DNA of 64,000 nucleotides from NCBI RefSeq assembly GCF_056712565.1, contig NZ_CM160072.1. One strand, given 5' to 3'. The position numbers were made by a program, and so were the translations under genes. The first letter of the stretch is position 1; every line of letters begins with the position of its first letter. This document shows positions 61,437 through 61,467 of the stretch, piece by piece. The notes under the pieces are model-generated. The model was not told the DNA's origin. It saw nothing but the letters and a program-made list of their open reading frames with translations, and searched no databases.

Positions 61437-61467
61437 GCGGAATGCGGTGCGCCATACCGCATTCCGC
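61437..61467. repeat. perfect 12-bp inverted repeat (stem-loop) between convergent uvrD and the DUF62 gene
   Basis: gcggaatgcggt-gcgccat-accgcattccgc; no flanking T-run, so REP-like or RNA-stabilising hairpin rather than a classical intrinsic terminator. Confidence 0.6.

What the first reader, a model, noticed from the sequence alone, without database searches (positions are those of the whole stretch)
61437..61467. Perfect 12-bp inverted repeat immediately after uvrD
gcggaatgcggt gcgccat accgcattccgc forms a strong hairpin between the convergent uvrD and DUF62 genes without a flanking U-tract. It may be the junction scar of the inserted or deleted DUF62 segment, a REP-like element, or a 3'-end stabiliser for both convergent transcripts.
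Basis: seen in the sequence. Interest (0 to 1): 0.3.

Follow-up and report, generated by a model that had tools for sequence, protein, structure and literature searches.

The report
Collapsed REP pair hairpin after uvrD
The strong hairpin just after the uvrD gene is the shrunken remnant of a common E. coli repeat pair (REP/BIME) and most likely only caps and protects the ends of the two facing messenger RNAs, so it is an ordinary kind of element.

Summary
The inverted repeat is real. It is 13 perfect bp (61436-61448 / 61456-61468) with a 7-nt loop and about -25 kcal/mol. It starts 3 nt after the uvrD stop, ends 8 nt before the stop of the convergent DUF62 gene, and has no T-tract on either side. 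The window is E. coli ATCC 11775.

The hairpin is single-copy and occurs in the ~2,410 of 5,426 complete E. coli genomes that carry DUF62. DUF62-less strains such as K-12 have a REP pair (BIME) at the same spot. So do three more divergent Escherichia-like lineages, two of which carry DUF62.

The left arm matches the outer arm of REP1. The right arm plus its 9-nt flank matches the outer arm of REP2. The hairpin is therefore a collapsed BIME, not the DUF62 indel scar; that boundary lies at 61476/61477. It has lost the GTAG motif, the stem mismatch and the linker, and it fails a REP covariance model. Alleles show compensatory changes at two stem pairs.

In K-12, Term-seq 3' ends map 6-7 nt past the homologous arm, with a Rho termination region further downstream. 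The likeliest role is an exonuclease-blocking 3' stem-loop for uvrD mRNA, and probably for DUF62 mRNA. It may also hinder terminating ribosomes. This is a known kind of element and of low interest.

The parts
59270..61432 (+). uvrD (DNA helicase II) coding sequence; stop TGA at 61430-61432
   Evidence: ORF list. The RefSeq annotation of the identical ATCC 11775 record gives a 2163-nt CDS ending here. Pfam UvrD_C and the PcrA/UvrD tudor domain match the C-terminal third.
61433..61435 (+). 3-nt spacer (CGT) between the uvrD stop codon and the first paired base. Other alleles carry an extra 10 nt (TTTACGATTC / TTTACAACTC) here.
   Evidence: Sequence; allele alignment A1.
61436..61448 (.). Left arm of the hairpin (TGCGGAATGCGGT). 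It is homologous to the outer 'head' arm of REP1 (GCCGGATGCGGTG) in K-12-type alleles.
   Evidence: comparison with L001/L003/L015/L016/L017/L097.
61449..61455 (.). Loop GCGCCAT. Most alleles have C at 61455, which gives one more G-C pair and a 5-nt loop, CGCCA. Its origin is not explained by the REP pair.
61456..61468 (.). Right arm (ACCGCATTCCGCA). It is homologous to the outer arm of the second, inverted REP (CGCCGCATCCGGC) in K-12-type alleles.
61469..61476 (.). Flank TCAGCACC, shared with the flank of REP2 in DUF62-less genomes. The predicted mature 3' end of uvrD mRNA is at about 61474-61475, by homology with K-12 3' ends 6-7 nt past the stem. This is the last sequence common to both haplotypes before the DUF62 segment.
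   Evidence: L003 has the identical ATCAGCACC. K-12 Term-seq 3' ends lie at 4000258/4000259, and REP2 ends at 4000252.
61477..62379 (-). DUF62 / SAM hydroxide adenosyltransferase family gene (300 aa), convergent with uvrD. The complement of its stop codon is at 61477-61479.
61477..62460 (.). Segment present only in the DUF62+ haplotype (about 984 bp). K-12-type genomes have about 29 nt here instead (ATCTTCAGTATCTGACACAAAACTATCGT).
   Evidence: Alignment of the window with K-12. The same 29-nt stretch is present in the divergent DUF62-less contig L097.
62462..63226 (-). yigE (phosphodiester glycosidase family), the gene that directly faces uvrD in K-12-type genomes.

Best explanation
The hairpin is a derived, collapsed form of a REP pair (BIME) that sits downstream of uvrD in Escherichia.

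Origin. A deletion of about 50-70 nt removed the two inner ('tail') arms, the CTAC/GTAG motifs and the linker. It fused the outer arm of REP1 to the outer arm of REP2. Those two arms are inverted copies of each other, so the product is an almost perfect palindrome. At least three further changes occurred in the central 7 nt.

State. The remnant is no longer a REP. It has no GTAG, no stem mismatch and no linker, it is single-copy, and it is predicted to be invisible to the REP transposase.

Function (inferred). Transcribed on either strand, it forms a stem-loop of about -24 to -25 kcal/mol with no U-tract. uvrD transcription reads through it and is stopped by Rho in the C-rich, G-poor antisense DUF62 sequence. 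3'-5' exonucleases then trim back to a few nt past the stem, which defines and stabilises the mRNA 3' end. The same is expected for DUF62 mRNA on the other strand. The stem begins 3 nt after the uvrD stop codon and 8 nt after the DUF62 stop codon, so it may also slow terminating ribosomes, as reported for REPs closer than 16 nt to a stop codon.

Shown here: the homology and polarity of the collapse, the loss of REP features, and the compensatory allele series.

Inferred: the RNA-level function in hairpin-bearing strains.
For: Position and homology. K-12 has, after the same CGTT, REP1 (GCCGGATGCGGTG CTGCG CACCTTATTTGGCCTA), a long linker and inverted REP2 (TAGGCCGGATAGGGCG TTTA CGCCGCATCCGGC), followed by ATCTGCGCC. 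L003 has the flank ATCAGCACC, identical to the window.

Polarity. A REP pair is present in every more divergent lineage sampled. These are L097 (uvrD 3' kb 91.7% identical, no DUF62), L016 (93.0%, DUF62+) and L017 (94.5%, DUF62+). In L016 and L017, DUF62 has diverged in step with its neighbours (93.8% and 92.6% nt). The single hairpin is seen only in E. coli DUF62+ genomes. No complete E. coli genome has the L017-type BIME+DUF62 junction.

Loss of REP identity. A model built from 10 independent REPs scores the window's REPs at 51-60 bits. It scores the orthologous K-12-type REP2 at 42-52 bits and REP1 at 25-30 bits. The most REP-like hairpin alleles reach only 14 bits, and the window allele is not reported at E<=10. 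The hairpin query matches one locus per genome, whereas a BIME query matches a median of 28 places. TnpA_REP needs both GTAG and the stem mismatch (PMC3333891).

Pairing is kept. Across 11 alleles, 97.9% of cells are paired. Pair 61439/61465 occurs as G-C, C-G and A-T. Pair 61441/61463 occurs as G-C, G-T and A-T. The covariation score is 0.143 against 0.073 in shuffles (0/500).

RNA 3' ends. In K-12 the Term-seq + strand 3' ends lie at 4000258 and 4000259, 6-7 nt after the last base of REP2 (4000252). A Rho termination region lies at 4000389 with Rho score 3.5 (PMC7815308 supplementary files 1 and 2).

General mechanism. Rho-dependent transcripts end just after stable stem-loops that lack U-tracts, and PNPase and RNase II trim them back to that point (PMC6061677). 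The first 100 nt beyond the hairpin have C well above G in both directions: 0.32/0.16 on the + strand and 0.42/0.20 on the - strand.

Translation. REPs fewer than 16 nt from a stop codon down-regulate translation (Liang et al. 2015, as summarised in PMC12306157).
Against: There are no 3'-end or stability data for any strain with the hairpin allele. The functional step rests on homology with the K-12 REP2 arm. Whether DUF62 is expressed is unknown.

Perfect pairing is not required. Large lineages carry a mismatch: G.G in the O157-like allele, A.C in Nissle, and A.G plus G.T in CREC-544. Complementarity could instead be restored by replication template switching in a quasipalindrome, without any selection (PMC5941160, PMC7202029).

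Stem diversity (5/26 segregating sites) is not clearly lower than in the neighbouring coding DNA (14/110 and 7/124).

No single deletion of any sampled REP pair reproduces the central 7 nt.

The K-12 3' end could also be a true pause or termination site rather than a trimmed end.
Confidence: 0.62

Rival explanations
1. The hairpin is a functionless relic. The collapse of the REP pair was neutral. The near-perfect complementarity of the arms is maintained mechanically, by intramolecular template switching during replication, which copies a change in one arm into the other. RNA-level selection plays no part.
For: Template-switch correction of imperfect inverted repeats is documented in E. coli. 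It has also been proposed to explain the conservation of perfect inverted repeats in Proteobacteria (PMC7202029, PMC5941160). The double changes include transversions (C-G to G-C, C-G to A-T), which a copy mechanism produces in a single step. Mismatch alleles persist in large lineages. Stem diversity is not clearly reduced.
Against: Sampled alleles include single-arm intermediates: the G.G allele, and G.T before A.T. A one-step copy mechanism does not require such intermediates. The homologous K-12 arm coincides with a mapped RNA 3' end, so the structure is used at least there. This rival explains how the palindrome is maintained. It does not exclude a function.
Confidence: 0.22
2. The hairpin is a bidirectional intrinsic (Rho-independent) terminator serving both convergent genes.
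For: It is a very stable GC-rich stem lying exactly between two convergent stop codons. BIMEs have been reported to attenuate transcription (Espeli et al. 2001, cited in PMC6061677).
Against: There is no T-run 3' of the stem on either strand and no A-run 5' of it. The flanks are ...GACGT/TCAGCACC on the + strand and the complement on the - strand. The terminator scan does not call it. In contrast, other perfect inverted repeats in the window have A/T-run flanks, for example 26412-26439. In K-12 the region shows bicyclomycin-sensitive read-through.
Confidence: 0.07
3. The hairpin is the junction scar, or the recombination or attachment site, created by insertion or deletion of the DUF62 segment.
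For: In complete E. coli genomes, hairpin presence and DUF62 presence are almost perfectly linked (2,405-2,413 against 2,411 genomes). The hairpin lies only 8-9 nt from the indel boundary.
Against: L016 and L017 carry DUF62 with an intact REP pair and the same 9-nt flank. Both arms and the flank pre-exist in DUF62-less genomes. No matching repeat or arm is present at the other end of the segment, 62380-62461. Linkage over 9 nt is expected without any causal connection.
Confidence: 0.04
4. The palindrome acts as a DNA-level protein binding site: an operator for a dimeric regulator, or a gyrase/IHF/Pol I site as described for BIMEs.
For: BIMEs bind IHF, DNA gyrase and Pol I (PMC3333891). A perfect palindrome is the classic operator geometry.
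Against: The L linker that carries the IHF site is exactly what has been deleted. The site lies at the 3' ends of two genes, with no promoter-like site nearby. One stem position takes three different Watson-Crick pairs across alleles, which fits selection or copying for complementarity rather than for base identity.
Confidence: 0.04

Closest known systems
REP elements / BIME-1 (REP pair with L linker) of E. coli
   Same: The hairpin occupies the same chromosomal position as the uvrD-proximal BIME of K-12 and of more divergent Escherichia-like lineages. Its arms derive from the REP 'head' sequence GCCGGATGCGG(T/C)G. It is extragenic, at the 3' ends of genes, and forms a stable stem-loop when transcribed.
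   Different: It has a single palindrome instead of two REPs. The stem is perfect, without the two-base mismatch. GTAG/CTAC and the linker with its IHF site are absent. It occurs once per genome. It is not detected by a REP covariance model. In the window allele the arms have drifted further, from GCCGGAT to GCGGAAT.
Protective 3' stem-loops of Rho-dependent transcripts (Dar & Sorek 2018; Peters et al.)
   Same: It is an energetically stable stem-loop with no U-tract, lying immediately downstream of a stop codon and followed by C-rich, G-poor sequence. The orthologous K-12 arm has a steady-state 3' end 6-7 nt downstream, with a Rho termination region further on.
   Different: The 3' end and its Rho and exonuclease dependence have not been measured for this allele. 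Here one hairpin would serve two convergent transcripts.
REPs within 15 nt of a stop codon that down-regulate translation (Liang, Rudd & Deutscher 2015)
   Same: The stem starts 3-4 nt after the uvrD stop codon (14 nt in alleles with the 10-nt insert) and 8-9 nt after the DUF62 stop codon. All of these are inside the reported window of fewer than 16 nt.
   Different: It is not a bona fide REP. The effect on ribosomes, tmRNA tagging or UvrD level is untested. The original paper could not be read here and is known only through a later paper's summary.
Perfect inverted repeats maintained by quasipalindrome template switching (Lovett lab; Lavi et al. 2018)
   Same: It is a near-perfect short inverted repeat whose arms change in step within a species.
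   Different: Single-arm intermediates are also observed among the alleles. The mutational mechanism itself was not tested.
Bidirectional intrinsic terminators between convergent genes
   Same: A GC-rich hairpin centred between two convergent stop codons.
   Different: It lacks the A-tract/U-tract flanks that define them.

Membership tests
REP (repetitive extragenic palindrome) of E. coli | Conserved GTAG (GT[A/G]G) tetranucleotide 5' of the foot of the palindrome, on one strand | tested here: not met
   The four bases 5' of the stem are ACGT/CGTT on the + strand and CTGA/TGAT on the - strand. All 10 independent REPs used for the model except one degenerate copy start with GTAG or GTGG. The definition is from PMC3333891.
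REP (repetitive extragenic palindrome) of E. coli | Imperfect palindrome with a two-base mismatch in the stem (required for TnpA_REP binding and cleavage) | tested here: not met
   The window has 13 perfect pairs. Most alleles are perfect or carry only G.T. PMC3333891 reports that a perfected REP palindrome abolishes binding and cleavage.
REP (repetitive extragenic palindrome) of E. coli | Match to the family's sequence and structure consensus | tested here: not met
   Covariance model R1 scores REPs in the window at 51-60 bits. It scores orthologous REP2 at 42-52 bits and REP1 at 25-30 bits. The hairpin alleles score 14 bits or less (E 0.02 at best), and the window allele is absent at E<=10.
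REP (repetitive extragenic palindrome) of E. coli | Many dispersed copies per genome | tested here: not met
   The 57-nt hairpin query finds one locus per genome; where two places are listed I take the second to be the palindrome matching itself on the other strand, which was not checked. The window has no other copy. A REP-pair query finds a median of 28 places per genome.
REP (repetitive extragenic palindrome) of E. coli | Extragenic, near gene 3' ends; positional orthology with annotated REPs | tested here: met
   It lies in a 44-nt spacer between two stop codons. It occupies the same site as the REP pair in K-12, L003, L015, L016, L017, L097 and L102.
BIME-1 | Two REPs in inverted orientation separated by the conserved long L linker (frequent IHF site) | tested here: not met
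   Only one palindrome is present and there is no linker. K-12 and L097 have the L linker (ATCAT.CAGATTCAATAAATTGCAACGTCATG), homologous to the linker of the canonical BIME at window 42974-43006.
Intrinsic (Rho-independent) terminator | GC-rich stem-loop followed by a U-tract | tested here: not met
   The stem is present. No site with 5 T in 8 follows it on either strand, and the scan does not report it.
Protective 3' stem-loop of Rho-dependent transcripts | Stable stem-loop without a U-tract, C>G sequence downstream, steady-state 3' end just past the stem, read-through when Rho is inhibited | tested here: inconclusive
   The structure and composition criteria are met. The 3' end and bicyclomycin sensitivity are shown only for the orthologous K-12 REP arm. 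No data exist for a hairpin-allele strain.
Stop-codon-proximal REP translational down-regulators | Stable REP stem beginning fewer than 16 nt after the stop codon; ribosome stalling and reduced protein | tested here: inconclusive
   The distance criterion is met: 3-4 nt for uvrD, 14 nt in alleles with the insert, and 8-9 nt for DUF62. The effect on translation cannot be tested with these tools. The criterion is taken from PMC12306157's summary of Liang et al. 2015.

The most novel reading that the evidence does not exclude
The collapse was adaptive domestication. A mobile REP doublet was converted into a transposase-immune, IHF-free perfect hairpin. It now serves as a shared 3'-end cap, and as a brake on ribosomes at the stop codon, for two convergent genes. 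Its pairing has been kept by genuine compensatory evolution within a single species. The sampled alleles preserve the stepwise path C-G > G.G > G-C and G-C > G.U > A-U. That would make this locus a natural within-species series for measuring selection on an mRNA 3' structure.
Probability: 0.15. Interest if true: 0.35.

Novelty: new member of a known kind. Interest (0 to 1): 0.2.

Why it matters
The finding explains a conspicuous hairpin as an ordinary product of REP/BIME turnover and removes the suggested link to the DUF62 indel.

It offers a small practical point. About 44% of complete E. coli genomes, including B strains, O157:H7, Nissle and the type strain, have a different uvrD 3' UTR from K-12. 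Results on uvrD mRNA ends or REP-dependent effects in K-12 should therefore not be transferred without checking.

The allele series, with paired changes and their intermediates, could serve as a natural test of selection against template-switch correction in a 3' stem-loop.

Tried and rejected
- Rfam scan of 61000-62000 at E<=10 gave only chance-level hits (miRNA and snoRNA models, 15-20 bits, far below gathering scores).
- Searching the window for other copies of the arm with up to 2 mismatches found 8 matches against 8.65 expected, so it is not a repeat family in its present form.
- The promoter/terminator scan found no terminator call at the hairpin.
- I looked for residual homology that would show K-12 to be a DUF62 deletion. 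I found only a 13/14-nt match (GCGCCATCTTTCAG at 62270-62283) and scattered short blocks, which I judged to be chance. The 29-nt K-12 stretch is instead shared with the divergent DUF62-less contig L097.
- I tried to reproduce the hairpin by one deletion from each sampled REP pair. The best products still differ at 3 or more central positions, so the loop origin is unresolved.
- I noticed a 7-8-nt identity between the loop region (TGCGCCAT) and the K-12 REP2 flank (TGCGCCAT). I treated it as probable coincidence, given how many comparisons were made.
- Liang et al. 2015 and Liang & Deutscher 2016 are not held in the library. The RepRanger and Dar & Sorek supplements with per-gene tables are not held. 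A search for Term-seq data in hairpin-allele strains (O157, UPEC, BL21, Nissle) found nothing usable.
- I did not count exact allele frequencies across all 2,411 genomes, because the search tool reports no sequences. The 11 alleles come from a 'spread' sample.

Full report
**Observation.** The window is 100% identical over 61000-62600 to E. coli ATCC 11775, the type strain (H1). The reported repeat lies exactly where stated. It is in fact one pair longer than reported: T61436 pairs with A61468, giving 13 perfect pairs (61436-61448 / 61456-61468) around a 7-nt loop. The 44-nt spacer folds at -25.1 kcal/mol as + strand RNA (z -4.8) and -23.6 kcal/mol as - strand RNA (z -3.5), and no shuffle did as well. 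Only six loci in the 64 kb have perfect arms of 10 bp or more with a short loop. Simulated sequence gives well under one, and this repeat is the longest. The uvrD stop codon (61430-61432) is 3 nt from the stem. The stop codon of the convergent 300-aa gene (61477-62379, minus strand; Pfam SAM_HAT_N and SAM_HAT_C, formerly DUF62) is 8 nt from it. Neither side has a T-run, and the terminator scan does not call the site. There is no other copy in the window and no Rfam family match.

**What lies at the same place in other genomes.** All but one of 5,426 complete E. coli genomes match the uvrD end. 2,411 carry the DUF62 segment; the rest go from uvrD directly to yigE, as K-12 does. A 57-nt query centred on the hairpin finds one locus per genome, in 2,413 genomes, which is essentially the DUF62+ set.

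In K-12 the uvrD stop is followed by the same CGTT and then by a REP pair. The order is REP1 (GCCGGATGCGGTG-CTGCG-CACCTTATTTGGCCTA), a long linker, inverted REP2 (TAGGCCGGATAGGGCG-TTTA-CGCCGCATCCGGC) and then ATCTGCGCC. Another DUF62-less strain has the flank ATCAGCACC, identical to window 61468-61476. The linker is homologous to that of a canonical BIME elsewhere in the window, at 42940-43042.

The left arm of the hairpin is therefore the outer arm of REP1. Its right arm plus flank is the outer arm plus flank of REP2. The two inner arms, the CTAC/GTAG motifs and the linker are missing.

**Polarity, and the relation to DUF62.** A scan of one genome per species with the DUF62 protein found it in only two Escherichia representatives, L016 and L017. 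The next relatives are an H. pylori contig (87% aa) and Aeromonas (about 75%). Both L016 and L017 have uvrD, then a REP pair, then the 9-nt flank, then the DUF62 stop. Their DUF62 genes have diverged from the window about as much as the flanking uvrD and yigE have (92.6-93.8% against 89.7-94.5%). The 'REP pair plus DUF62' state is therefore old.

A still more divergent contig, L097 (uvrD 91.7% identical), has the REP pair, no DUF62, and the same 29-nt stretch before yigE that K-12 has. No complete E. coli genome has the L017-type 'REP pair plus DUF62' junction.

The most economical history has three stages:

1. REP pair without DUF62.
2. DUF62 inserted 9 nt beyond REP2, replacing about 29 nt.
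3. Collapse of the REP pair to one hairpin, within the E. coli DUF62+ haplotype.

The hairpin is therefore not the scar of the DUF62 indel, whose left boundary is 61476/61477. The two features are merely tightly linked. The spacer is generally unstable. Other DUF62-less strains show a short-linker REP pair (L015) or a REP1 that has lost its head (L102), and a 10-nt indel sits just after the stop codon.

**Mechanism of the collapse (inferred).** REP1's inner arm (CACCTTATCCGGC) and REP2's outer arm (CGCCGCATCCGGC) are direct repeats. Slippage or a template switch between them would delete 51-72 nt and leave REP1's head facing its near-perfect complement. However, the best single-deletion product from any sampled REP pair still differs from the hairpin at 3 or more of the central 7 nt. 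The loop is not explained.

**It is no longer a REP.** I built a covariance model from 10 REPs taken from other loci. The scores were:

- REPs in the window: 51-60 bits.
- Orthologous REP2 copies: 42-52 bits.
- Orthologous REP1 copies: 25-30 bits.
- The most REP-like hairpin alleles (GCCGGATGCGGTG / CACCGCATCCGGC, for example E2348/69): 14 bits.
- The window allele: not reported at E<=10.

GTAG is absent on both strands and the stem has no mismatch. Ton-Hoang et al. showed that the REP transposase needs both features (PMC3333891).

**Allele series.** Eleven distinct alleles from a spread sample keep 97.9% of stem cells paired. Pair 61439/61465 occurs as C-G, A-T and G-C, with G.G and A.G intermediates. 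Pair 61441/61463 occurs as G-C, G-T and A-T. The covariation score is 0.143 against 0.073 in shuffles (0/500), and slid partners score lower.

The window allele (GCGGAAT / ATTCCGC) is the most derived from the REP head. Its loop C-to-T change costs one pair. Predicted energies for the alleles range from -20.5 to -29.6 kcal/mol, compared with -17.4 for K-12 REP1 and -24.3 for K-12 REP2. Diversity in the stem (5/26 sites) is not clearly below that of the adjacent coding DNA, and mismatched alleles mark large lineages. Selection for pairing is therefore suggested, not proven. Template-switch correction of quasipalindromes is a credible non-selective alternative (PMC7202029, PMC5941160).

**Function.** Direct data exist only for K-12. 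Adams et al. list + strand Term-seq 3' ends at 4000258 and 4000259 in two of three growth-condition lists. They also list a Rho termination region at 4000389 with Rho score 3.5 (PMC7815308 supplementary files 1 and 2). REP2 ends at 4000252, so the RNA ends 6-7 nt past the arm that is homologous to window 61456-61468.

This fits the general picture from Dar & Sorek. Rho-dependent transcripts end just beyond stable stem-loops without U-tracts, after trimming by PNPase and RNase II, with rut-like C-rich sequence downstream; a quarter of those stem-loops are REPs (PMC6061677). In the window, the first 100 nt beyond the hairpin have C well above G on both strands (0.32/0.16 and 0.42/0.20).

I therefore predict uvrD mRNA ends at about 61474-61475 and DUF62 mRNA ends at about 61429-61430.

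The stem also starts within 16 nt of both stop codons. That is the distance at which REPs were reported to stall terminating ribosomes and lower expression (Liang et al. 2015, as summarised in PMC12306157). This is a further, untested possibility.

**Verdict.** The element is a new member of a known kind, namely a REP-derived protective 3' stem-loop produced by BIME turnover. Interest is low. The tidy within-species compensatory series is the only feature that might repay further work.

Noticed in passing
window 42940-43042 and 21420-21455: A canonical BIME-1 lies at 42940-43042: a y REP at 42940-42973, the L linker, and a second REP at 43007-43042. A solitary REP lies at 21420-21455. They score 51-60 bits with the REP model and served as internal positive controls.
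   Followed up: partly
window 61477-62379 (minus strand); L018: The DUF62/SAM hydroxide adenosyltransferase gene starts with a signal-peptide-like segment (MKKTLATLFLLTCLGSSSAYA), which is unexpected for a SAM-using enzyme. Its GC content is 0.48 against 0.58 for uvrD. Outside Escherichia the closest homologue is on a Helicobacter pylori SA213A contig (87% aa, 81% nt; flanks at GC 0.36-0.38), followed by Aeromonas at about 75% aa. This suggests horizontal movement between distant phyla.
   Followed up: partly
L015 (strain GMF054), L102 (strain 504239), L001 (K-12 type): the uvrD-yigE spacer: The spacer after uvrD is a hot spot of REP structural variation within E. coli. Variants include a long-linker REP pair, a short-linker REP pair, a REP1 lacking its head arm, and a 10-nt indel (TTTACGATTC) directly after the stop codon that changes the stop-to-stem distance from 4 to 14 nt.
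   Followed up: partly
window 13017-13044, 18999-19025, 26412-26439, 45323-45352, 63441-63472: These are the other perfect inverted repeats of 10-12 bp. Those at 26412-26439 (AAAACGCCACGTG..CACGTGGCGTTTT) and 13017-13044 have A-run/T-run flanks, like bidirectional intrinsic terminators. The one at 18999-19025 (CAAGGCCTTCTCC CGG AGAAGGCCTTG) has no such flanks.
   Followed up: no
window 62380-62461: The 82-nt spacer between the DUF62 start and the yigE stop is highly conserved: 98.8% identical in L016, against about 93% for the flanking genes. It contains a small hairpin (GCCAG-CCCCAGTTTGT-CTGGC, about 62423-62443). It may hold the DUF62 promoter or leader and the yigE 3' end.
   Followed up: no
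L006 (strain GN06156): RefSeq annotates the DUF62 gene as a pseudogene (internal stop) in this strain, although the hairpin is intact and perfectly paired.
   Followed up: no
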